From a virus (lineage: Duplodnaviria > Heunggongvirae > Uroviricota > Caudoviricetes), in IMG/VR virus record IMGVR_UViG_2541047893_000008: a stretch of DNA of 38,116 nucleotides; one strand, given 5' to 3'. Of this stretch, positions 1 through 36,852 are shown piece by piece; position 1 is the first letter of the stretch; every line of letters begins with the position of its first letter. The notes under the pieces are model-generated. The model saw nothing but the letters and a program-made list of their open reading frames with translations, was not told where the DNA came from and did no database searches. Position numbers and translations under genes: made by a program.

Positions 1-1005
1 TTAATCCCCCGTGGACACTGCGTGGACACTTACGCCACCTTTCAGCGGATTAAGGGCCACCGCATCCTGCAGGTAATCCGGTGCAAAATGCGCATATGCC
101 ATTGTTTGCTGAATGGTTGCGTGACCAAGAATCTTCTGAAGCGCAATAATGTTTCCTCCGTTCATCACAAAATGGCTGGCGAACGTATGCCGCAGCACAT
201 GTGCAGCCTGGCCTTTTGGTAAATCGGGCTTAACTCTTTTCAGCGCCAGGCAGAATTCCCGGTACTTCACCTCAAACAAGCCGCCTGTTTCTCTGGTTTT
301 GATCGCCTCACAAACTGCCTGCGAAATTGGCACTGTTCTCTTCCGGCCATTTTTGGTTTCAAGAAACGTTACACGGTTATGAACTATCTGTTCACCACGA
401 AGCTTACAAGCTTCACTCCAGCGCGCCCCTGTGCTTAAACACAAAAGCGCAACACGCCAGTAGTCGCCCTCCAGTGTATCGAGCAATAGCGCCACTTCCT
501 TCTGTGACAGGAACGCCATTTCTCGTGGAGATACATAAAGAATAGAAATTCCCCTTACTGGATGTTCTGCATCCCAAAGACCTATTTTTTTCAGCACGGT
601 AAACATTCCGGATAACCGATTCATGTACCTGTTAGCAGATGACGGTTTCAATCCTTCAGCTATCTTTTGAGAACGCCACGCGATAATTTTCAGCTTATCA
701 AGATCCACAGCCTGCATATCAGCGCCAAGCTCATTGATTATGTTGCGCAGTTGTTTTCGGTCTTCTTCCGCCTTACGCCTGTGCTGGCCGTGATACATCC
801 ACCACAACTCAAGCAAATCATTTAGCGTTCGACGATCACGGTAGCCCTGTATATATTCCCGCTTTTCAGCGTTCGCCATGATGTAGCGTTCAGTGGCCAC
901 CGCTACCGATTTTTTGTCAAATACCTTACGCACGCGCTTTCCCTTGCGTCCGTTCGGCCTGATGTCCAGCAAATAACGACCATCTTCGAGCTTCTTAATC
1001 GACAT
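1..1005 (-). CDS. int: Tyrosine integrase (P2 Int family)
   Basis: ORF 1..1020 on the minus strand; likely start at the internal Met (MSIKKLEDGRY...), matching the P2 Int N-terminus from memory. C-terminal catalytic region has LRHTFA (H-x-x-R) and GHATIQQTMAYAHF (Tyr nucleophile) motifs. Confidence 0.9.
   Translation of the reverse strand: MSIKKLEDGRYLLDIRPNGRKGKRVRKVFDKKSVAVATERYIMANAEKREYIQGYRDRRTLNDLLELWWMYHGQHRRKAEEDRKQLRNIINELGADMQAVDLDKLKIIAWRSQKIAEGLKPSSANRYMNRLSGMFTVLKKIGLWDAEHPVRGISILYVSPREMAFLSQKEVALLLDTLEGDYWRVALLCLSTGARWSEACKLRGEQIVHNRVTFLETKNGRKRTVPISQAVCEAIKTRETGGLFEVKYREFCLALKRVKPDLPKGQAAHVLRHTFASHFVMNGGNIIALQKILGHATIQQTMAYAHFAPDYLQDAVALNPLKGGVSVHAVSTGD
11..29. repeat. attL core (direct repeat gtggacactgcgtggacac), overlaps 3-prime end of int
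   Basis: The 19-mer recurs at 36936-36954 with one mismatch (gtggtcactgcgtggacac), exactly bracketing the prophage gene set. It encodes the last residues (SVHAVS) of the integrase on the minus strand. Confidence 0.6.
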
Positions 1006-1101
1006 TACGAAGCCCTCCAATGAACCGCTCTACAATTTCTCCAGCCTCTTTCCAGCAATAATCAGACCAGACAAAAAGCAGGTCTAACCAGTTTTCTGGC
1101 C

Positions 1102-5116: not shown

Positions 5117-7939
5117 ATGACGGCAGAGTACATCAGGGACTGGCAACAACCGCGCCACGCAGTGGGGCGTGAAGGAACGGGGATCCCCGCTCCTGAATCC
5201 GCGCTTTCCTCCTGGCTGGATGCCTACCGGGTAGAGAACGAGCACCGCCAGGAAATGGCTGATGCGGCGTTCTCCGCAACGCCGCTGGGCAACCTGATTA
5301 ATAAAAGCCTGAACGCACAGGAAAAACAGGACAAAACCATCACACTGGCAGGAGATGCCAGAAAACAGGCACGCGGCGCGGTGGATGAAGCCATGGCCTC
5401 GCTGCGCCTGCTGCCGTCCTATCTGCGCGATCCGCTTATTCGCCACCTCTCCTTCCTGCGCAAAAAACAGGAAGCCGATCGTCAGAAAGGCAAAAAGAGC
5501 TGGCAGGCTGAACGCTACGCGCGCGGAAACCTGCGCAAAATATTCGAACGTCTGGATCGCACCGATCACCGCTGGCTGACACAGGGTTATCGCTCCCTTG
5601 CCGGACGCGAACGCCTGGACGATTTGCTTTACCTGCCGCAGCTCAACAAACACCAGATACAGACACTGGCCACCATGACGGCGGCGATGTTCAGCAGCAC
5701 CTTCGAAAAACTCTGCGATGGCTTTGGCGCGACCGATGGCGAACTGACCATGGATGTAACGCTGAAGGCGTATCAGATGCTGGCCCGCATGGCGTTACAC
5801 CTGCACGCCATGCCTCCACATTATGACGCACTGACAACAGACAAAGACCGGAGGAACGAACCGGACACGGAGCTGCTGCCGGGCGCAATCCTTCGCCTGA
5901 CCTGTGCAGAATGGTGGAAACGCAAACTGTGGCTGTTACGTTGCGAGTGGAGAGAAGAACAACTCCGCGCCGCCTGTCTGGTTTCCAGAAAAACATCGCC
6001 CTATCTGAGCCAGGACGCGTTAAGCGAGTTTCGCGCACAGCGCGAGAAAACACGCGATTTCCTGAAAAGTTTCATGCTGGAAAATGAAGACGGGTTCACG
6101 ATTGATCTCGAGACGGTGTATTACGCGGGAGTAAGTAACCCGGTTCACCGTAAGGCAGAAATGATGGCCACCATGAAGGGGCTGGAACTTCTGGCCGAAG
6201 CCCGTGGCGACAAAGCGGTGTTTCTGACTGTCACCTGCCCGTCAAAATACCACGCCACAACAGAGAACGGTCATCCGAATCCCAAATGGAACGGGGCCAC
6301 CATGCGCGACTCCAGCGATTACCTGGTTAACACGTTTTTTGCGGCGGTCCGCAAAAAACTGAACCGCGACGGTCTTCGCTGGTATGGCATCCGCACGGTG
6401 GAGCCTCACCATGACGGCACCGTGCACTGGCATATGATGGTCTTTGCGCATCCGGAAGAAATCGACAGCATCGTGGCCATCACCCGCGATATTGCCATTC
6501 AGGAAGACCGCCACGAGCTGGGCAATGATATTACTCCGCGCTTTAAGGCGGAGTATGTCGACGGCTCAAAAGGCACACCAACCAGCTATATCGCGACCTA
6601 CATCGGAAAGAACCTGGACAGCCGCGCCGTGGATGGCATCGACCCGAAAACGGGCAAGCCACGCGTTGACCACGAAACCGGAAAATCAATGGCCGAGAGT
6701 GTGGAGCGCGCCATCGGCTGGGCGCGCCTTCATCGGGTCCGCCAGTTCCAGTTCTTTGGCATCCCCTCCCGTCAGGTGTGGCGTGAACTGCGCCGCCTTG
6801 CCAGCCAGATGGCACGCAACCCGGAAGGCCCGCAACGACTGAAAGATGACGCAATGGATGCGGTACTCGCTGCCGCCGATGCCGGGTGTTTTGCCACCTA
6901 CATTGAAAAACAGGGCGGCGTACTTGTTCCACGCAAAGACTACCTGATTCGCACCGCCTACGACCTCGCAGATGAGCTGAATGATTACGGCGAACAGAGC
7001 GTACAGATTTACGGGATCTGGTCACCACTCATCGGGGAATCCTCCCGTGTGTGCACGCATCCGGATAACTGGAAACTGGTAAGACGTAAACCGGAAACGG
7101 AAGACAGCGCCCGCGAAAATGGTTTTGACCTTCAGGGCGGCCCTGCCGCCCCTTGGACTCGTGGCAATAACTGTCCCCGTGTACAGGAAACGGACAACAA
7201 CGGGACAGAACAGCCGGAAGAACGGCCAGCACCGTGGCCGCAGCTCCCTGACGGCGTTGAAGTGAACGAATGGATGCGCTCACTGAAACGACACGAACGC
7301 CGGGCGCTGATGCGTTCGCTTCGTGACAAACAGGCAAAAAACAGCAGCGATGAAATGCAGAGCTGGACACAGAGCCGCAAACAGCAGCGGCCTTTGCCTG
7401 ATAACCACGAATTACTCGCTAAAGAATGGCGGGAGTCTGCTGAATCTCTCGGCCTGCATATCGGTGAACAACAGATGCAGCACCTGTTACGGGGCGGCAG
7501 TCTGTACGTTGACGGCAGCATCATTGCACCGCAGGGATTTGAAATTGTACGCAAACCGGATACCCGCCCGGACAGCCGAATCACGCAGCTCTGGCAGCGC
7601 CTGAGCCGTAATCACGGCGTAAGCAGCACGGAGATCCGCCATAACCCGGTCTCCAGCTATCTGGCACAGCTCGGGGCATCAGACCCCGAAGCCGCCGCAC
7701 GCCTGGCATCCACACTTCAGCAGGTCCAGAACACCATGAAAACACCCGTTACCGTGCTTTCTGACATGCTGCGCGCCATTCGTGACGCAGAGCACGCACA
7801 GAGAATCAGAGAAACCACTGAACGCGCCCGCCGCAAAGCAAACCTGCTGAGGACTGGCCTGACCAGTGGAAACAAAAAACAGACAGAAACGGGATTCACA
7901 AATCCCGTAAATGAGCAAAAAACGCGCCGCGATATATGA
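5117..7939 (+). CDS. A: Rolling-circle replication initiation endonuclease (P2 gpA family)
   Basis: 940-aa ORF with HUH motif (HWHMMVF) and two-tyrosine motif (TSYIATYIGKN); conserved blocks (VFLTVTCPSKYH, GIRTVEPHHDGT) match P2 A. About 180 aa longer than P2 A at the C-terminus. Confidence 0.9.
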   Translation: MTAEYIRDWQQPRHAVGREGTGIPAPESALSSWLDAYRVENEHRQEMADAAFSATPLGNLINKSLNAQEKQDKTITLAGDARKQARGAVDEAMASLRLLPSYLRDPLIRHLSFLRKKQEADRQKGKKSWQAERYARGNLRKIFERLDRTDHRWLTQGYRSLAGRERLDDLLYLPQLNKHQIQTLATMTAAMFSSTFEKLCDGFGATDGELTMDVTLKAYQMLARMALHLHAMPPHYDALTTDKDRRNEPDTELLPGAILRLTCAEWWKRKLWLLRCEWREEQLRAACLVSRKTSPYLSQDALSEFRAQREKTRDFLKSFMLENEDGFTIDLETVYYAGVSNPVHRKAEMMATMKGLELLAEARGDKAVFLTVTCPSKYHATTENGHPNPKWNGATMRDSSDYLVNTFFAAVRKKLNRDGLRWYGIRTVEPHHDGTVHWHMMVFAHPEEIDSIVAITRDIAIQEDRHELGNDITPRFKAEYVDGSKGTPTSYIATYIGKNLDSRAVDGIDPKTGKPRVDHETGKSMAESVERAIGWARLHRVRQFQFFGIPSRQVWRELRRLASQMARNPEGPQRLKDDAMDAVLAAADAGCFATYIEKQGGVLVPRKDYLIRTAYDLADELNDYGEQSVQIYGIWSPLIGESSRVCTHPDNWKLVRRKPETEDSARENGFDLQGGPAAPWTRGNNCPRVQETDNNGTEQPEERPAPWPQLPDGVEVNEWMRSLKRHERRALMRSLRDKQAKNSSDEMQSWTQSRKQQRPLPDNHELLAKEWRESAESLGLHIGEQQMQHLLRGGSLYVDGSIIAPQGFEIVRKPDTRPDSRITQLWQRLSRNHGVSSTEIRHNPVSSYLAQLGASDPEAAARLASTLQQVQNTMKTPVTVLSDMLRAIRDAEHAQRIRETTERARRKANLLRTGLTSGNKKQTETGFTNPVNEQKTRRDI

Positions 7940-7980
7940 AGCGCGCACAAAACAGGCGAAAGCGGGATTTAAAAATCCCG
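7890..7980. repeat. Two near-identical 18-bp palindromes (cgggattCACAAatcccg at 7890-7907; cgggatttAAAAatcccg at 7963-7980) flanking the A stop codon, upstream of parM
   Basis: Seen in sequence: one copy inside the last codons of A, the other 36 bp upstream of the parM start. Candidate ParR operator/centromere-like site, terminator or ori-associated structure. Confidence 0.5.
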
Positions 7981-8015
7981 TAAACGGTTAATTAACCAAC
8001 ATAAGGAAAATCGAC

Positions 8016-8975
8016 ATGAAAATTTGTATCGACGACGGCTCCACCAACATCAAGCTGGCATGGACTGAGAATGGCGAACGCCGCAACGCCATCAGCCCGA
8101 ACAGCTTCAAGTCGGAATGGTCTGCGCCGTTCGGTGGCATGCAGCCCGCGAACTACATGCTTGATGGCGTGCGCTATGGTTTTGATCCGGTCAGCGATCG
8201 CTTTGTCCAGACGACCGACACGCAATACCAGTACAGCGATGTGAATGTAATCGCCATTCATCACGCGCTGGTCAAATCAGGCATCACGCCACAAGAGGTG
8301 GATGTGGTTGTCACCCTGCCACTGAGCGAGTATTTCGAGACAAACGCACAGCCGGACATGGCCAACATCAACCGCAAAAAAGCGAACGTTATGCGCTCGG
8401 TGGAGTACCAGAACGGCGAAGCATTCACTATCCGTAACGTGCGGGTTATGCCTGAATCCATTCCGGCTGGCTTTAAAGCACTGGCTGACATGAGTCCGTT
8501 TGAATCCCTGCTGATTGTGGATTTAGGCGGAACCACGCTGGATGTGGCAAAGGTTCAAGGGCAACTGGCAGGTATCAGCCAGGTGTTTTGCGATCCACAC
8601 GTAGGCGTTTCCCTGATGGCCGATGCCGTACTGTCGGTGATGGCCACTAACGGTATGCGCACCAGTCACCACATCGCCAATACCATTATCGAACATCGCC
8701 ATGATGAAGCCTGGCTGCGCCAGCACATCCACAATGACGCGCATTACGCCAGCCTGATGGCGGTTATTCGTGAAAAGGAAGAAACACTGAAACAACGCGT
8801 GATCCGCGCGCTGGCGGTTTTTTCGGGTTACGGGCGGGTGATGGTTGTCGGTGGAGGGGCGGAGATTGTGGCACCCGCTATCCGCGAAGTCTGCGGAGTT
8901 AATGCGACTTTCATCGCGGACGGGGTGCCACAGTTTGCTCTGGTTAATGGGCTGTACGCAATGGACAAGGAGTAA
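8016..8975 (+). CDS. parM: ParM/StbA-like actin-fold partition ATPase
   Basis: 319-aa ORF with actin-fold signatures: phosphate-1 (IDDGSTNIKL), phosphate-2 (IVDLGGTTLDV), adenosine motif (VVGGGAEIV). N-terminus resembles plasmid R1 ParM from memory (MLVFIDDGSTNIKLQW...). RBS AAGGA. Confidence 0.88.
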   Translation: MKICIDDGSTNIKLAWTENGERRNAISPNSFKSEWSAPFGGMQPANYMLDGVRYGFDPVSDRFVQTTDTQYQYSDVNVIAIHHALVKSGITPQEVDVVVTLPLSEYFETNAQPDMANINRKKANVMRSVEYQNGEAFTIRNVRVMPESIPAGFKALADMSPFESLLIVDLGGTTLDVAKVQGQLAGISQVFCDPHVGVSLMADAVLSVMATNGMRTSHHIANTIIEHRHDEAWLRQHIHNDAHYASLMAVIREKEETLKQRVIRALAVFSGYGRVMVVGGGAEIVAPAIREVCGVNATFIADGVPQFALVNGLYAMDKE

Positions 8976-8979
8976 ACCA

Positions 8980-9294
8980 ATGACGACACCAACCAGACGG
9001 ATAAGTTTCTATCTGAAGCCCGCCGCCGTCAAGAGTGAACAGGAGGCGTGCAATTACCTCGATAGCCTGCCAGCCTCCGAACGCAGCCGCGCGCAACGCG
9101 CGGCCTTTCTGGCTGGGCTAGCGCTCATAAAGCGCAACCCAGCATTTGCCTACTGGATGGCCGAATGGCCAGAGGACAACCTCCCCTTCAATACCGTTAG
9201 CATCAAGGAAACATACCAGGATAATCAGCCTAGCGGAGTTGAATGCAATTTTTATAAAATTGCAAAGAATATTCAGACCTTATTCCCAGAATAA
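8980..9294 (+). CDS. parR: ParR/StbB-like small DNA-binding partner (putative ribbon-helix-helix)
   Basis: Small ORF immediately downstream of parM (start 5 nt after the parM stop, RBS AAGGAG). N-terminus RRISFYLKP followed by two helices (EQEACNYLDSL; SERSRAQRAAFLAGLAL) fits the RHH pattern of type II partition adaptors. Assignment is inference from context and pattern. Confidence 0.65.
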   Translation: MTTPTRRISFYLKPAAVKSEQEACNYLDSLPASERSRAQRAAFLAGLALIKRNPAFAYWMAEWPEDNLPFNTVSIKETYQDNQPSGVECNFYKIAKNIQTLFPE

Positions 9295-9343
9295 TCTGAT
9301 AATTGTATGTGAACTAATAAAATACAGACCAACACATCATTCT

Positions 9344-9366
9344 GGCACCCTTGCTAACAGGGTGCC
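9344..9366. terminator. Hairpin between convergent parR and the AT-rich membrane module
   Basis: ggcaccc-ttgctaac-agggtgcc: 8-bp stem, 7-nt loop in the 83-bp convergent intergenic gap. Confidence 0.4.
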
Positions 9367-9377
9367 AATGTTTCAAA

Positions 9378-10214
9378 TCATGATGAAATTGCCGAAGTTT
9401 TTTTATCGTGCTGAAGTACCGCAAATGCCATTAAAACCTCAAGAGAATAGCGGCGATAATACTTAACAAAACCATAATAAAATACTCGGGATGCAGCAAT
9501 ACAAAACAAGAGAAGAAAACAAAAAGGTAACAGTCTGATATTTATATCTATTAAAAAGGATAGAAGGAGCAGGAACATAAGCAACCAGACTGAAGCGAGA
9601 AAAACAAATGTAATGTTTCTACAAAAACCATACAAAGCAACATAGTTTTGCATTTTCACCTGATGATTTTTAGAATGTTCATACACATAATGATAAGCAA
9701 GGCGAAAAAGATCGCCCCTCAAGCCCTTACGTCGATATAGCGTAGATAAAACATTTATATAACCATCTCGTATTTGCGGCCAAAAGACTTTAATAAGTAT
9801 AGAATGCAGTGTGGTTTTATGATGTTCTGCTTTATCAAAAGCTGATACAGGAAATAAAAAAACTCCACGAATAAAATTAACTATACTGAACTTAGTATTA
9901 TGTCGTTTTATTTTCAGGGAGCTTCTTTTAGAAAACAGATAAATTGAAGGATACCCAAGTTTACTGTTCATGTATTTTTCAATTAAACAGGATGATAGAA
10001 TAGATATGAAGTGACCTGAAATATATGATAGAACGATTAATACCACATATATAAATACACTTATTATTTCTTTATATTTCAGGATATGGTTAAGAATACC
10101 TTCTATATAAACAGGGTTAATTTCAATAGAAAACAAAAAAAGGATAAACAGGAATAACCCACCTGGAATTAGATAGCCCAAAAAGTCATAAAATGAAAAC
10201 GGATTCTGTGTCAC
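9378..10214 (-). CDS. Polytopic membrane protein of unknown function (278 aa), AT-rich cargo gene
   Basis: Several long hydrophobic segments; codon composition much more AT-rich than the phage backbone; second gene of a two-gene leftward operon; RBS GGGGGAAG. Confidence 0.7.
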   Translation of the reverse strand: MTQNPFSFYDFLGYLIPGGLFLFILFLFSIEINPVYIEGILNHILKYKEIISVFIYVVLIVLSYISGHFISILSSCLIEKYMNSKLGYPSIYLFSKRSSLKIKRHNTKFSIVNFIRGVFLFPVSAFDKAEHHKTTLHSILIKVFWPQIRDGYINVLSTLYRRKGLRGDLFRLAYHYVYEHSKNHQVKMQNYVALYGFCRNITFVFLASVWLLMFLLLLSFLIDINIRLLPFCFLLLFCIAASRVFYYGFVKYYRRYSLEVLMAFAVLQHDKKTSAISS

Positions 10215-10253
10215 ACTTCCCCCTGTGTTACTTGTAAATTAAAGGGTAAAACA

Positions 10254-10751
10254 TTATTTGTTTTTCCGTAAAGGATTAGCTTTCCATCTTCTTACTAACC
10301 ATTCGAATTCTTGATATGTAGTATCCGAATTAATGCTTTCTCTGATTGCTTTAATTAATGGCTCGGCAATATCATATGTCTCTACAACTGTTGTGTAAGA
10401 TGTTCTTTTTATCATTTTTTCATCATAAATACCTTCACGAATACTTACAGCAACTCGCTCGTAAAAATTTAAAATATATTGAAATTTTCGGCGCTCGGCC
10501 ATTTCTTCATCTGTTATTATGCAACCATCACAAGGAAAAACATAAGAACGAAATGATTTGCCTGAACGATGCACTTGTTTCAGGGTATGCAATGACTCTA
10601 TATATTGCATATCTTGCCGACTCTCAAAAAGAAAGTTGGCCGTTTGAGTTTTTTTTGCGGTACGCACATTGTAGATAATGGTTCCAATGGCAACCAAAAC
10701 GCCAAGCAGAACAATAGTATTGCTGATGATTTGTAGTGTTATTGGGTTCAT
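10254..10751 (-). CDS. N-terminally membrane-anchored protein of unknown function (165 aa), AT-rich cargo gene
   Basis: Single N-terminal TM helix (ITLQIISNTIVLLGVLVAIGTIIY) followed by a charged soluble domain; first gene of the two-gene module; no family recognised. Confidence 0.7.
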   Translation of the reverse strand: MNPITLQIISNTIVLLGVLVAIGTIIYNVRTAKKTQTANFLFESRQDMQYIESLHTLKQVHRSGKSFRSYVFPCDGCIITDEEMAERRKFQYILNFYERVAVSIREGIYDEKMIKRTSYTTVVETYDIAEPLIKAIRESINSDTTYQEFEWLVRRWKANPLRKNK

Positions 10752-10771
10752 CCTATTTCATCCATAAAAAA

Positions 10772-10792
10772 GGCGGGGAGCAAATCCCCGCC
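10772..10792 (-). terminator. Rho-independent terminator-like hairpin (ggcgggga-gcaaa-tccccgcc) with a U-run on the minus strand, 14 nt upstream of the cargo-module start codon
   Basis: GC-rich 8-bp stem, 5-nt loop, followed on the minus strand by a T7 run. Oriented to stop leftward transcription coming from the Q-P operon. Confidence 0.6.
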
Positions 10793-10948
10793 TCATTAGA
10801 GGTCAACGTAGCTTAGAAACCATCAAATTCATCATACATTTTATTCATATCAACCCCCTCATAGAAATCATAACCACGTTTTGTGGTTTTTGTGACGTAT
10901 AAACTACATCAAAGGCAAGCCACGGTCAAATATATAGGCATGCTTACC

Positions 10949-10975
10949 TGCACAAAAGTGCACAAATTTGCACAA
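10949..10975. repeat. Three helically phased direct repeats (TGCACAA every 10 bp) in the cos region
   Basis: TGCACAAAAG TGCACAAATT TGCACAATTT seen directly; resembles a phased protein-binding array (terminase or host-factor site). Confidence 0.4.
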
Positions 10976-11071
10976 TTTTTTTGAACGACTTTTTACCCTT
11001 CCGGCCCGCATGGCGGCTGGATCCGTCAAGGATCCGTGCGTGCACAAAAAAACGCGCTTTTTCTGCGCGCA

Positions 11072-11090
11072 GGTGACGGGGGAACAGCCC
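11072..11090. other. Candidate cos (cohesive-end) site
   Basis: GC-rich 19-mer ggtgacgggggaacagccc in the ORF-free gap between hotspot and portal gene, where P2 cos lies. About 13/19 match to my recollection of the P2 cos sequence. Tentative. Confidence 0.3.
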
Positions 11091-11399
11091 GCGTTTCAGG
11101 GGGTAAATAGTATTCCCTGAGCGATGTCGCAGCGACATAACAGAATGGCCATATTTCTCACGCTGAGCGTGAAAAAGATGTGAGGGCTTTTGATTTGATG
11201 GGGTGAAAGGTAAGGCCGTCAAAATCGCACTGAGGCGGTGAGAACATGCAGTCAGCGCGGTGGGATTGCGTAAGAGTCTGACCGTCGATGATGGTAATAA
11301 ACAGGAAAGCGTCGTGAAATTATCTGATTGATACAGGAGCTGGAGAGTCGGGGCATAAATTTTTTATGCCCCGCCGAAGCAGCAGACAAGCGAAGCGCG

Positions 11400-12446
11400 T
11401 CAGGATGTGGGCTGGGTGTCTAACAGTGCGTAAGGGTTAAAGCGAATCACCTCTTCGCCAAGCCAGTCATTGATGTGCTTCATGGCCTCCATGACGGGCA
11501 TCAGCTCGTTAATTGCGTAAACCCGCGCGGCCTTCTCCACATCACCAAACGCACTTTTTTCGCCTGGCATCGCCCCCATCAGTTGCGGCGGAACGCGGTG
11601 CGCAGCCAGCACATCATCACGGGATGCCACCTTAACATTCATGAACTCATCCTTTGCGGTGATCTGCTGGAACGGCAAAATTTGCACCCCCTCTTTGCCA
11701 CCGTTGGGCGCATGAATGAGCACGTTTTTAAACGCACCACCACCACGCGCACCCTGTAGCGTTTCTTTCAGGGAGTCCATGCTTTCGCGGTTTACCTGCG
11801 CTGCACCGATGTAGATGATGCACCCGGCGTGGGATCCGTTGTCGTAATACAGTTTTCTGAACATGTCCGCCGAATGAGACAGGCTGGCCGAGAGTAATGC
11901 GCCGAGATATTCCGGCATGCCGTAGATTTCCTGGTTAATGTCAGGATTCATCAGGTGGCACACTTTGCCAGGGCGAAACTGAAACGCGTCCTTGCCATCC
12001 TGCACATACCACCATGATTCAAGATCGCTTCCGCGTCGCATGTATTTCGCCAGGGCGTGCCGTAATTTAAGCGGTTCGCCGAGCATATTGCTTCGAAGCT
12101 CAAGGAATGCGTTACCGAACACAAACCAGTCCAGCGCCAGCGCCGAGAAATCCTGCCGGGAAAGCAACGGGTGCGGGATGTAGCAACCGAGTAATACATT
12201 GCGCTTAAAGTAAAGCGCAGACTGATGCCAGGACGTTTGCCGGGCAGCTCTTGCCAGACCGTACCAGTCCACCGGGGTTTCATACCACCGCCCGTTATCA
12301 GCACAGTACATATTGTCCAGCAGGTCATGCCCGGTCAGGCGATAAGGACCATCAAATGTGAATGCACTGAGCGATGATTCTTTCCTGAGCGCATCAGCGA
12401 GATCAATGCGTGAACTCATGCGCACTTTTTTATTTTTTCTGCTCAT
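11400..12446 (-). CDS. Q: Portal protein (P2 gpQ family)
   Basis: 348-aa leftward ORF immediately downstream of the large terminase gene (ATGA overlap); size and position match P2 Q. Confidence 0.88.
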   Translation of the reverse strand: MSRKNKKVRMSSRIDLADALRKESSLSAFTFDGPYRLTGHDLLDNMYCADNGRWYETPVDWYGLARAARQTSWHQSALYFKRNVLLGCYIPHPLLSRQDFSALALDWFVFGNAFLELRSNMLGEPLKLRHALAKYMRRGSDLESWWYVQDGKDAFQFRPGKVCHLMNPDINQEIYGMPEYLGALLSASLSHSADMFRKLYYDNGSHAGCIIYIGAAQVNRESMDSLKETLQGARGGGAFKNVLIHAPNGGKEGVQILPFQQITAKDEFMNVKVASRDDVLAAHRVPPQLMGAMPGEKSAFGDVEKAARVYAINELMPVMEAMKHINDWLGEEVIRFNPYALLDTQPTS

Positions 12447-35218: not shown

Positions 35219-35359
35219 ATGTCGCAAAAATCGCTTACGGCCATCACGTTCTGCGTGACGGTAATCCTCATCATCTGGATGCTGCACGGTTCGCTGTGTG
35301 AAATACGGATGAGCTTTTGGGGAGCGGAGTTTGCGGCGTTCTTACAGTGTAAGCAGTAA
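35219..35359 (+). CDS. Hok/Gef-family-like small membrane toxin (candidate type I toxin)
   Basis: 46-aa ORF with RBS AGGAG 7 nt upstream: short N-terminus, one TM helix (AITFCVTVILIIWML), then the SLCEIR motif and EFAAF segment characteristic of Hok/Gef/PndA proteins. Followed by a 9-bp-stem hairpin. Confidence 0.55.
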   Translation: MSQKSLTAITFCVTVILIIWMLHGSLCEIRMSFWGAEFAAFLQCKQ

Positions 35360-35621: not shown

Positions 35622-35954
35622 ATGGCATTAATCAAATGTCCTGAATGCCAGAAAGAGGTGAGCGATTCAGCATTGTATTGCCCTGCTTGTGGTAAACAAC
35701 TGCAAAAACTTAAGCGTTCATTTTTTGGACGGATCATTAAGTGGGTTTTTATATTATTTAATATTTTTATGATCTATACGCTTTTAGTTGGAATAGGAGG
35801 CACTAGTGAAATAATAAATAATGCCACATCCGATGCCGAAAAAGCCGGTGCAGTTATTGGTACAGGCTTAGGTTTAATTACCATTGGAAGCTTATGGGTT
35901 ATTGGCGATATCATTATCGGAATTTTAGTATTTCTTACTAAACCAAAGGGATAA
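35622..35954 (+). CDS. Zinc-ribbon membrane protein (CPxC...CPxCG plus two TM helices), AT-rich cargo
   Basis: 110 aa; N-terminal Cys4 ribbon (CPECQ...CPACG), two hydrophobic helices; strong RBS AAAGGAGG; TTGACA -35-like hexamer about 85 bp upstream; AT-rich. Confidence 0.65.
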   Translation: MALIKCPECQKEVSDSALYCPACGKQLQKLKRSFFGRIIKWVFILFNIFMIYTLLVGIGGTSEIINNATSDAEKAGAVIGTGLGLITIGSLWVIGDIIIGILVFLTKPKG

Positions 35955-35958
35955 TAAA

Positions 35959-36852
35959 ATGAAAAATATAATTTTTTCTATAGGTGCATCATTTATATCA
36001 ATTAGTGTACTGCCTGTTCACGCAGCAACTGAACATAAGAACTTCAATGCAGTACTTCAGTGCCGAGCAATAGAAAATAATAAAGACAGACTTTCTTGTT
36101 ACGATAAGTCAATACAACCGACTCGAACGAAAGTTGCTGAAAAATTCGAAAGCAGAGATCAATGCCCTGATGAGAAAGATGATGATAGACGTTTATCTTG
36201 TTATGATCGTTTCTTTTCTCCAACATTTACTCCATCTGTAAACTCAAAATCTAAAACGGAAAAGCCAGTAACAACAGAGGCTCAGCAACCAAATCTTTCT
36301 GAGATATCTAAATGTCGTGCAGAAAATGATAAAGAAGCCAGACTAAACTGCTACGATAAACTATTCCCACAGGATAAAATCGCTCAAGCTGAATCAAAAT
36401 TAGAGAAAGCCACAGATGTAGGAAAATGGCACACATCCATTACTACATCGCCAATTGATGATTCGAAAAATGTAATTTTATCGTTAGAAAGTGATGATTA
36501 TATCAGAACTCCATTTGGAGAAGCGGTTACTCCTACTCTTTTTATAGCTTGCCGAGAAAAGAAAACCGAAGTATTTCTTAGTTGGGATGTATATTTAGGC
36601 CTTGAACAAACCAGCATGCTTTATCGCCTTGATAAACAGAAAGCAGTTGAGCGAAACTGGCTAGTATCTACAGATACAAAGGCTGTTTTTTATAAAGGTA
36701 ATGACATTGATTTCATCCGAAAACTAGCCAACTCAAGCAAAATGTATACAAAAATAACGCCTTATAATGAGAGCCCCGTAAGTGCAACTTTCAATTTAAA
36801 CGGCCTGTCAAACGCGCTAAAACCGCTTCAAGCTGCTTGTAACTGGAAATAG
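35959..36852 (+). CDS. Secreted/periplasmic protein with three Cys-containing repeats, AT-rich cargo
   Basis: 297 aa; signal peptide (MKNIIFSIGASFISISVLPVHA); three copies of a roughly 35-aa motif C-x7-9-(D/E)xRL(S/N)CYD(K/R)-x-F; start 4 nt after the zinc-ribbon gene stop. Confidence 0.7.
   Translation: MKNIIFSIGASFISISVLPVHAATEHKNFNAVLQCRAIENNKDRLSCYDKSIQPTRTKVAEKFESRDQCPDEKDDDRRLSCYDRFFSPTFTPSVNSKSKTEKPVTTEAQQPNLSEISKCRAENDKEARLNCYDKLFPQDKIAQAESKLEKATDVGKWHTSITTSPIDDSKNVILSLESDDYIRTPFGEAVTPTLFIACREKKTEVFLSWDVYLGLEQTSMLYRLDKQKAVERNWLVSTDTKAVFYKGNDIDFIRKLANSSKMYTKITPYNESPVSATFNLNGLSNALKPLQAACNWK

What the first reader, a model, noticed from the sequence alone, without database searches (positions are those of the whole stretch)
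7890..9294. Type II partition pair (ParM-like ATPase plus ParR-like adaptor) carried as cargo in an integrating P2-like phage
The ORF at 8016-8975 has all the actin-fold nucleotide-binding motifs and a ParM-like N-terminus, and is followed by a small RHH-like protein in the parM-parR arrangement of plasmid segregation loci. Two near-identical palindromes sit just upstream. I am not aware of P2-like phages normally carrying a partition locus; they integrate via Int. The pair could indicate an episomal (phage-plasmid-like) lifestyle, a stabilisation moron, or a repurposed actin-like filament system.
Basis: partly seen in the sequence, partly recalled or inferred. Interest (0 to 1): 0.75.

Follow-up and report, generated by a model that had tools for sequence, protein, structure and literature searches.

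The report
ParMRC partition cassette in P88-like prophage
The integrated P2-type (P88-like) prophage really does carry a plasmid-style actin-like DNA-segregation cassette (ParM, ParR and two upstream binding sites), but it is a conserved, already annotated and already published feature of this phage lineage rather than unusual cargo, and its role in an integrating phage has never been tested.

Summary
Window 8016-8975 encodes a full ParM (Pfam StbA_N 1e-81 plus ParM C-terminal domain 1e-68; R1 ParM structure 1mwk, E 3e-92). Window 8980-9294 encodes a ParR/StbB adaptor (PF10784 7e-29; profile hit to pB171 ParR 2jd3, E 3e-10). Two palindromes, CGGGATT-N4-AATCCCG at 7890-7907 and 7963-7980, lie 73 bp apart, where 0 are expected by chance.

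The "cargo" reading is not supported:
- The pair is a core feature of the P88-like genus Xuanwuvirus: 14 of 14 phage records with this gpA carry it.
- 1304 E. coli genomes carry it, against 1321 with this gpA.
- Its G+C matches the phage backbone, and parM pN/pS is 0.06.
- The order gpA-parM-parR recurs in P2-like prophages of Plesiomonas, Hafnia, Serratia and Enterobacter.
- The real variable cargo starts just after parR.

A stable plasmid lifestyle is unlikely: 1442 of 1444 E. coli copies are chromosomal, and this one sits between pdxB and flk.

The most likely role is active segregation or positioning of the circular phage genome after infection or excision, as shown for srpMRC of SXT/R391 and AlpAC of prophage CGP3.

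Rousset et al. 2022 already noted that about a quarter of P2-like phages carry a putative partition system. Novelty is therefore low; the function is an open, testable question.

The parts
5117..7939 (+). Gene A replication endonuclease (940 aa), immediately upstream and probably in the same early transcription unit; its 3' end contains site 1
   Evidence: Pfam Phage_GPA 3e-131. Co-occurs with parMR in 14 of 14 phage records and about 99% of E. coli genomes.
7873..7911 (.). Repeat unit 1 of the candidate centromere/operator (parC-like); palindrome CGGGATT-CACA-AATCCCG at 7890-7907
   Evidence: GGGA/TCCC cores conserved while spacers vary in 68 aligned loci. Equivalent site at -131 in Plesiomonas and -128 in Hafnia.
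7946..7984 (.). Repeat unit 2 of the candidate centromere/operator; palindrome CGGGATT-TAAA-AATCCCG at 7963-7980, 52 nt upstream of the parM ATG
   Evidence: Spacing to unit 1 is 73 bp (72 in Plesiomonas, 73 in Hafnia).
8016..8975 (+). parM, actin-fold segregation ATPase (319 aa)
   Evidence: Intact 319-aa ORF in 79 of 79 related loci, pN/pS 0.061.
8980..9294 (+). parR (stbB-type) adaptor, 104 aa: N-terminal ribbon-helix-helix domain (about 1-62), variable linker (about 63-90), C-terminal helix with the motif K-N-I-x-x-L-F-P-E
   Evidence: Pfam PF10784 7e-29. Profile hit to pB171 ParR 2jd3 E 2.7e-10. 41% identity over 58 aa to an R1-type ParR. C-terminal motif shared with the R1 ParR tail. Secondary structure from a low-confidence model.
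9343..9367 (.). 9-bp perfect inverted repeat (TGGCACCCT-N7-AGGGTGCCA) between parR and the convergent low-GC gene; possible end of the transcription unit
   Evidence: I16. Not scored as an intrinsic terminator by the scan, so the assignment is tentative.

Best explanation
This is a complete, functional-looking type II (ParMRC) DNA partition cassette. It is a vertically retained core module of P88-like (Xuanwuvirus) P2-type phages and sits directly after the replication initiator gene A.

Proposed mechanism, with the basis of each step:
1. ParR dimers bind the two palindromes through the N-terminal ribbon-helix-helix domain. Each palindrome has half-sites one helical turn apart, and the two palindromes are 73 bp (about 7 turns) apart. 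This is inferred.
2. The conserved C-terminal helix of ParR captures the ends of ATP-ParM filaments. This is inferred from homology to R1 ParR/ParM.
3. Filament growth between two ParR-bound phage circles pushes them apart. This follows from established knowledge of R1 ParMRC.

The prophage is integrated, and no separate promoter is recognisable upstream of parM. The cassette is therefore most likely expressed with the early (replication) operon and acts on the extrachromosomal circular phage genome. That form exists after infection before integration, and after excision or during gpA-driven replication. P2-type phages are known, from my own knowledge, to produce monomeric circles at that stage. 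The benefit would be to avoid loss or clumping of phage circles in dividing cells, giving more reliable lysogenisation, replication or packaging. This parallels srpMRC of SXT/R391 elements and AlpAC of prophage CGP3.
For: Identity of the parts.

ParR keeps both functional ends. The N-terminal strand TRRISFYL matches R1 RRTIAFKL, and the C-terminal K/R-N-[AI]-x-x-L-[FI] motif aligns with the R1 ParR tail.

Selection: parM is intact in 79 of 79 loci with pN/pS 0.061, against 0.26 for the adjacent gpA 3' part. parR is intact in 77 of 79 loci: one is truncated at 79 aa and one is cut by a contig end.

Cis sites: they are non-random. The GGGA/TCCC cores are conserved with variable spacers. Two GGG-N10-CCC sites sit at the same positions and 72-73 bp spacing in E. 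coli, Plesiomonas and Hafnia, although ParM is only 62% identical between these genera. In Hafnia the sites stay next to parM even though another ORF separates it from gpA.

Lineage retention:
- 14 of 14 phage records carry both gpA and parM.
- 1304 E. coli genomes carry parMR against 1321 with this gpA.
- The order gpA-parM-parR-cargo-portal recurs in four other genera.
- Phage-context ParMs form two subclades with 100% bootstrap each.
- G+C equals that of the backbone.

Expression with the early operon: no sigma-70-like promoter was found at 7850-8016, and no convincing + strand terminator lies between the cox-proximal promoter-like site (1407-1436) and parR.

Precedents for partition systems serving the transient circular form of integrating elements: PMC4489591 and PMC4446434. 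A Hok/Gef toxin gene at 35219-35359 fits selection against loss.
Against: No experiment exists, and no binding, filament or stabilisation data were found in the literature searched.

The candidate centromere has only two sites (four half-sites). R1 has ten direct iterons, so these may be only an autoregulatory operator.

The Serratia/Enterobacter subclade has a different repeat layout (output).

One natural variant (L027) has lost one site through a 73-bp deletion.

Absence of a recognisable promoter is weak evidence for co-transcription, because the consensus scan is crude.

Inner arm positions of site 1 vary without compensation in 29 of 68 loci. This fits protein recognition of the GGGA cores but shows the palindrome is not strictly maintained.
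Confidence: 0.6

Rival explanations
1. Facultative or regular phage-plasmid lifestyle. The cassette lets the prophage be inherited as a low-copy plasmid instead of integrating. This is the first reader's leading idea and the suggestion made in passing by Rousset et al. 2022.
For: - The cassette is a close homologue of a bona fide plasmid stability locus.
- The phage also carries a Hok/Gef gene, the other R1 stability function.
- One complete 34,461-bp P88-like genome is deposited as a circular 'plasmid' of an E. coli isolate (NZ_CP148288.1).
- Rousset et al. state the idea (PMC9122126).
- The only other sequenced phage with a ParM homologue is D6 (91 kb, 47% identity, gene annotated as 'StbA type plasmid stability protein'), which I recall as a P1-like phage-plasmid.
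Against: - 1442 of 1444 places in 5426 complete E. coli genomes are chromosomal.
- The window copy is integrated between pdxB and flk with an intact integrase.
- The other 'plasmid' hits are very large records of 228 kb to 1.4 Mb or a linear, IS-ridden Shigella fragment.
- The 34-kb record is cut exactly at the att junction. That is what an assembler produces for an excising prophage.
- No plasmid-type replicon is evident beside gpA.
Confidence: 0.15
2. Accessory moron acting for or on the host. The gene pair would be hotspot cargo like old/tin, for example a fitness factor, a defence system, or a tool to destabilise competing ParMRC plasmids through partition incompatibility.
For: - It lies between gpA and the portal gene, the region defined as a cargo and defence hotspot of P2-like phages (PMC9122126).
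- The phiSM paper lists it as a 'fitness' gene (PMC6456863).
- The parR 3' part is mosaic and partly tracks the downstream cargo type.
Against: - It has no match to 5027 PADLOC defence models.
- It co-occurs with this gpA in about 99% of cases, whereas the DNA just after parR falls into at least 18 types in 67 loci.
- Its G+C is that of the backbone.
- Synteny is conserved across five genera.
- ParM is at most 51% and ParR about 41% identical to plasmid versions, so cross-reaction with plasmid centromeres is unlikely.
Confidence: 0.1
3. Regulatory remnant. ParR and the palindromes serve only as a repressor-operator pair (or the hairpins as RNA elements), and ParM no longer segregates DNA.
For: - There are only two sites instead of an iteron array.
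- ParR proteins are known autorepressors in R1 (from my own knowledge).
- The ParR of the E. coli lineage is shortened to 103-104 aa, against 116-140 aa in other lineages.
Against: - Strong purifying selection on the whole of parM (pN/pS 0.061, 79 of 79 intact).
- All ATPase motifs are retained.
- The ParM-binding C-terminal motif of ParR is conserved across very divergent linkers.
- The hairpins are not followed by a T-run on the + strand.
Confidence: 0.1

Closest known systems
parMRC (parA/stb locus) of plasmid R1/NR1, type II partition
   Same: Gene order is sites-parM-parR. ParM aligns end to end with the R1 ParM structure (E 3e-92; about 46% identity to R1-type IncF ParM), with all nucleotide-binding motifs. 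ParR shares the N-terminal RHH region (41% identity) and the C-terminal K-N-A/I-x-x-L motif. The half-site AATCCC resembles the R1 iteron AAACCC.
   Different: It is carried by an integrating P2-type phage directly after gene A. The candidate centromere is two palindromes 73 bp apart, one inside a coding region, instead of ten direct 11-bp iterons around a strong promoter. No recognisable promoter of its own was found. ParR is shorter, with a hypervariable linker.
srpMRC of SXT/R391 integrative conjugative elements (Carraro et al. 2015, PMC4489591)
   Same: A ParM-like ATPase, a small adaptor and four upstream repeats on an element that normally sits integrated. It is expressed only with the excision/transfer programme and stabilises the transient circular form. 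It is accompanied by toxin-antitoxin functions.
   Different: SrpM is only distantly related to R1 ParM and SrpR has no recognisable ParR domain. Here both proteins are close R1/pB171 relatives. The host element is a phage, not an ICE. Function is shown for srpMRC but not here.
AlpAC of Corynebacterium glutamicum prophage CGP3 (Donovan et al. 2015, PMC4446434)
   Same: An actin-like protein plus a DNA-binding adaptor that binds upstream of its own operon, encoded by an integrated prophage. It is induced early after excision and is needed for efficient phage DNA replication.
   Different: The host is Gram-positive. The sequence relationship to AlpC/AlpA was not tested here. The gene order is adaptor first in alpAC, and no role in replication is shown for P88-like phages.
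ParM/StbA of phage D6 (recalled as a P1-like phage-plasmid)
   Same: It is the only other sequenced phage in the 50,697-record collection with a ParM homologue (47% identity).
   Different: By my recollection D6 is maintained as a plasmid, whereas the P88-like phages are integrated in 1442 of 1444 E. coli places.

Membership tests
Type II (ParMRC) partition system | Actin-fold ATPase of the ParM/StbA family with intact nucleotide-binding motifs | tested here: met
   Pfam StbA_N 1.4e-81 and ParM C-terminal domain 1e-68. R1 ParM 1mwk E 3e-92, with the phosphate-1, catalytic Glu, phosphate-2 and adenosine motifs conserved in the alignment.
Type II (ParMRC) partition system | Small ribbon-helix-helix ParR adaptor encoded immediately downstream of parM | tested here: met
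   PF10784 7e-29. Family profile hits pB171 ParR structure 2jd3, E 2.7e-10. BLASTP to an R1-type ParR E 7e-16. parR starts 4 nt after the parM stop. The AF2 monomer model has low confidence (pLDDT 54), and only its secondary-structure order fits.
Type II (ParMRC) partition system | ParR C-terminal peptide that binds ParM | tested here: inconclusive
   The sequence motif K/R-N-[AI]-x-x-L-[FI]-P aligns with the R1 ParR C-terminus and is kept across 7 linker types and 5 genera. Physical binding could not be tested.
Type II (ParMRC) partition system | Cis-acting centromere (parC): repeated ParR sites upstream of parM, overlapping its promoter | tested here: inconclusive
   Two conserved palindromic sites lie upstream. 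There are only two, arranged as palindromes rather than an iteron array, and no promoter was recognised. ParR binding was not tested.
Type II (ParMRC) partition system | Stabilises an unstable replicon in cis | not testable with these tools
   Requires a plasmid-loss assay.
Phage-plasmid (prophage maintained extrachromosomally) | Lysogens carry the prophage as a plasmid rather than integrated | tested here: not met
   1442 of 1444 places in complete E. coli genomes are chromosomal. This copy is integrated between pdxB and flk. One 34.5-kb circular record exists, and it is cut at att.
Phage-plasmid (prophage maintained extrachromosomally) | Plasmid-type replication module in place of, or beside, integration functions | tested here: not met
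   An intact tyrosine integrase and a Cox-family gene are present. The only replication initiator seen is gpA of the P2 type.
Variable hotspot cargo / anti-phage defence system of P2-like phages | Similarity to a known or candidate defence family | tested here: not met
   No PADLOC match for ParM or ParR at E <= 0.1.
Variable hotspot cargo / anti-phage defence system of P2-like phages | Presence varies among otherwise similar phages; foreign base composition | tested here: not met
   14 of 14 phage records carry it, and 1304 E. coli genomes have parMR against 1321 with this gpA. G+C is 0.53-0.58 like the backbone, against 0.28-0.38 for the island after parR.
Partition systems of integrating elements (srpMRC / AlpAC type) | Expressed with the excision/replication programme rather than in the quiescent integrated state | tested here: inconclusive
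   The position directly after gene A, the lack of a recognisable promoter and the lack of a + strand terminator before parR suggest co-transcription with the early operon. No transcript data are available.

The most novel reading that the evidence does not exclude
P88-like phages may be a hidden intermediate between integrative phages and phage-plasmids. On this reading, parMRC together with hok actively segregates and retains the monomeric circular genome. A non-integrated phage could then persist for generations as a facultative plasmid or carrier state, or replicating circles could be spatially organised for efficient P2-type packaging from circles. About a quarter of E. coli strains would then carry a prophage with a functional, phage-adapted actin-like cytoskeleton that uses a minimal two-site centromere.
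Probability: 0.3. Interest if true: 0.55.

Novelty: already known. Interest (0 to 1): 0.3.

Why it matters
About 24% of complete E. coli genomes carry this cassette inside a P88-like prophage, yet nobody appears to have tested what an actin-like segregation machine does for a phage that integrates. If it acts on the transient circular genome, it would extend to tailed phages the principle shown for SXT/R391 ICEs and for CGP3: integrating elements need active partition during their short extrachromosomal phase. It would also offer a naturally minimal ParMRC system, with two palindromic sites and a 104-aa ParR, for mechanistic work. The practical point for annotation is that parM-parR marks the conserved left border of the gpA-Q cargo hotspot and should not itself be counted as cargo.

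Tried and rejected
1. **Defence-system reading.** PADLOC gave no hit for ParM or ParR.
2. **attP-junction search for free circular copies.** I searched for a contiguous attP among E. coli genomes. It was uninformative, because the only circular record (NZ_CP148288.1) is cut exactly at att and matches across a record origin are split. No other record had an internal attP.
3. **Empty attB in that strain.** I tried to check whether the strain's chromosome has an empty attB. The assembly is not in the E. coli collection.
4. **The Shigella boydii 26.7-kb 'plasmid' hit.** It is a linear, IS1-ridden prophage fragment and not an episome.
5. **Promoter search upstream of parM.** Nothing passed the consensus scan. 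A TTAATnAA box about 20 nt upstream of the ATG is conserved across genera and is unexplained.
6. **Hairpins as intrinsic terminators.** Only the minus-strand reading of site 1 scores, and there is no T-run on the + strand.
7. **AlphaFold2 of the ParR monomer.** Confidence was low (pLDDT 54), as expected for an obligate dimer, so I ran no fold search.
8. **First bootstrap test.** It used a wrong taxon set that included P0024 and gave 0 of 200.
9. **Literature searches for functional work on P88 or Xuanwuvirus ParM.** None was found.
10. **Citation for P2 packaging from monomeric circles.** The search failed, so that statement rests on my own knowledge.

Full report
**What is there**

The window is an integrated P2-type prophage. 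The integrase lies at 1-1020 (-), and a cox-led early operon runs on the + strand. The 940-aa replication endonuclease gpA lies at 5117-7939 (Pfam Phage_GPA 3e-131). The portal, terminase and capsid genes start at about 11400. An E. coli chromosome identical over the query places the element between pdxB and flk.

Directly after gene A come three features:
- two 39-nt direct repeats (7873-7911 and 7946-7984, spacing 73), each containing the palindrome CGGGATT-N4-AATCCCG (0.00 expected by chance);
- a 319-aa ORF at 8016-8975;
- a 104-aa ORF at 8980-9294.

**Identity of the proteins**

The 319-aa protein is a full-length ParM.
- It matches Pfam StbA_N (1.4e-81) and the ParM C-terminal domain (1e-68), and PHROG 691 'partition protein'.
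- It aligns end to end with the R1 ParM structure 1mwk (E 3e-92).
- The motifs IDDGSTNIKL, MPESIPAG, DLGGTTLD and GGGAE are conserved.

The 104-aa protein is a ParR/StbB.
- It matches Pfam PF10784 (7e-29) and PHROG 2515.
- A family profile hits the pB171 ParR structure 2jd3 at E 2.7e-10.
- It is 41% identical over 58 residues to an R1-type ParR.
- Aligned with ParRs from R1-type and other IncF plasmids and from four other genera, it keeps the N-terminal strand (TRRISFYL against R1 RRTIAFKL).
- It also keeps a C-terminal motif, K/R-N-[AI]-x-x-L-[FI]-P, that aligns with the last residues of R1 ParR. From my own knowledge, that tail is the ParM-binding peptide of PDB 4A62.
- A low-confidence AF2 monomer model (pLDDT 54) gives helices at 20-29, 37-52 and 54-61, a disordered stretch at 62-90 and a helix at 91-101. 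This order fits an RHH domain, a flexible linker and a terminal helix, and I give it little weight.

**Core module, not cargo**

- In 50,697 phage records, the same 14 records hold at least 80% of this gpA and also hold parM. These are P88, P884B11, 520873, 503458, phiSM, 569R5, 705R2, Chuche, PhiR44_2 and duplicates. They are all P88-like; those whose taxonomy I looked up are classified in Xuanwuvirus.
- The only other phage with a ParM homologue is D6 at 47% identity, which I recall as a P1-like phage-plasmid. Other Peduoviridae have none at E <= 1e-5.
- In 5426 complete E. coli genomes, 1304 carry parMR and 1321 carry this gpA at 80% coverage or more.
- parMR has the backbone G+C (0.53-0.58). 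The stretch at 9300-10900 drops to 0.28-0.38.
- In 80 IMG/VR loci, parM is an intact 319-aa ORF in 79 of 79 analysable cases, with pN/pS 0.061. The last 300 codons of gpA give 0.26.
- The DNA just after parR falls into at least 18 unrelated types in 67 loci. parR therefore marks the conserved left edge of the gpA-Q cargo hotspot described by Rousset et al. (PMC9122126).

**Deeper conservation**

ParMs 53-62% identical to this one lie in the same order (gpA, sometimes one or two extra ORFs, then parM, parR, variable genes and portal). They occur in P2-like prophages of Plesiomonas, Hafnia, Serratia and Enterobacter. ParMs at 48-50% identity sit in plasmid-like or conjugative contexts. Plasmid ParMs reach at most 51% identity.

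In a neighbour-joining tree the phage-context ParMs form two subclades, each with 100% bootstrap. The two join with 56% support.

**The cis sites**

- Across 68 aligned E. coli loci the GGGA/TCCC cores are almost invariant, while the spacers vary (CACA/CACG and TAAA/TCAG).
- 73 of 79 loci match a strict two-site pattern 72-74 bp apart. Of the other six, two lack enough upstream sequence and three carry one-base variants of the sites. One (L027) has a clean 73-bp deletion that fuses the two repeats.
- Upstream of parM there are exactly two GGG-N10-CCC elements in E. coli (-125 and -52), Plesiomonas (-131 and -59) and Hafnia (-128 and -55).
- In Hafnia another ORF separates gpA from parM, and the sites stay with parM. 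This ties them to the partition genes rather than to gene A.
- The half-site AATCCC resembles the R1 iteron AAACCC seen upstream of an R1-type parM.
- The Serratia/Enterobacter subclade instead has a pair of roughly 14-19-nt inverted arms.

These data make the palindromes strong candidates for ParR sites. The layout, four half-sites in two palindromes seven helical turns apart, differs from the ten-iteron parC of R1. Whether it works as a centromere, an operator or both is not shown.

**ParR is modular**

Among the E. coli loci there are three N-domain types and seven unrelated linker types. The last residues, N-I-x-x-[LFM]-F-P, are kept throughout. The window's allele has a low-GC 3' part (0.37) and travels with the low-GC downstream island. 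This suggests that recombination events which swap cargo often end inside parR.

**Lifestyle**

1442 of 1444 parMR places in complete E. coli genomes are chromosomal. PLSDB 'plasmid' hits fall into three groups:
- very large records of 228 kb to 1.4 Mb;
- a linear, IS-ridden Shigella fragment;
- one complete 34,461-bp circular P88-like genome.

The ends of the 34-kb record coincide with the att junction seen in chromosomal prophages. This is what an assembler yields for an excising prophage. Stable plasmid lysogeny is therefore at most rare.

**Expression**

No sigma-70-like promoter is found between 7850 and 8016. No convincing + strand terminator lies between the promoter-like site upstream of cox (1407-1436) and the end of parR. 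I infer, weakly, that parMR is read with the early replication operon. It would then be on after infection or induction and off in the repressed lysogen.

**Most likely function**

The cassette most likely segregates or positions the extrachromosomal circular phage genome while the early operon is active. This is inference, and it rests on two documented precedents:
- srpMRC stabilises the excised form of SXT/R391 ICEs and is expressed only with the excision programme (PMC4489591).
- AlpAC of prophage CGP3 is induced early and is needed for efficient phage replication (PMC4446434).

The Hok/Gef gene at 35219-35359 (PF01848) adds a second R1-like stability function to the same phage.

**Novelty**

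- The genes are annotated as ParM and partition protein in RefSeq phage and bacterial records and in PHROGs.
- The phiSM paper lists the gene as a putative fitness factor (PMC6456863).
- Rousset et al. [quoted passage not shown]

This analysis adds the following:
- the cassette is lineage core rather than hotspot cargo;
- it is under strong purifying selection;
- its two-site architecture is conserved across genera;
- ParR has a modular build;
- the genomic evidence argues against a regular plasmid lifestyle.

I found no functional study.

Noticed in passing
window 35219-35359 (+): A 46-aa Hok/Gef-family toxin gene (PF01848, E 3.7e-7) lies near the right prophage end, next to ogr. It is also present in the 34.5-kb circular P88-like record. 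The phage therefore carries homologues of both R1 stability loci, parMRC and hok/sok. I did not look for a Sok-like antisense RNA.
   Followed up: partly
window 9295-11400, genes 9378-10214 (-) and 10254-10751 (-): A low-GC (0.28-0.38) two-gene island lies in the gpA-Q cargo hotspot: a 278-aa multi-pass membrane-like protein (PHROG 12528, weak PADLOC Csx27 hit at 1.4e-4) and a DUF4760 protein (PHROG 2284). It may be an uncharacterised defence or exclusion system. At least 18 different sequence types occupy this position in 67 related loci.
   Followed up: partly
window 8980-9294 and loci L010-L089: parR is mosaic, with three N-domain types and seven unrelated linker types but an invariant C-terminal N-I-x-x-L-F-P motif. 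Linker type partly tracks the downstream cargo type, and the window's allele has a low-GC 3' part. This suggests that cargo-swapping recombination often ends inside parR.
   Followed up: partly
window 5117-7939: gpA here is 940 aa, but the Pfam Phage_GPA domain covers only residues 179-503. The roughly 440-aa C-terminal extension has no family match and evolves faster (pN/pS 0.26) than parM. Relatives in other genera have gpA of 785-907 aa, or a split gene (Hafnia: 835 aa plus a 167-aa ORF).
   Followed up: no
window 7986-7999; L004 about 6440-6452; L006 about 7975-7987: A TTAATnAA box about 20-30 nt upstream of the parM start codon is conserved in E. coli, Plesiomonas and Hafnia. It does not score as a sigma-70 -10 element, and its role is unknown.
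   Followed up: no
locus L027 (IMGVR_UViG_2657245439_000011), upstream of parM: A natural variant has an exact 73-bp deletion between the two 39-nt repeats. It leaves a single hybrid palindrome and removes the normal end of gene A, so it amounts to a ready-made one-site mutant.
   Followed up: no
window 35622-36852 (+): Right-end cargo between hok and flk: a zinc-ribbon membrane protein (110 aa) and a VasI/TagO-like type VI secretion-associated protein (297 aa, PF11319 5e-25).
   Followed up: no
plasmid record NZ_CP148288.1 (L003): A complete 34,461-bp P88-like genome is deposited as a circular plasmid of E. coli Z1323PEC0009. Its record ends coincide with the att junction. I could not check whether the strain's chromosome lacks the prophage, because the assembly is not in the collection.
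   Followed up: partly
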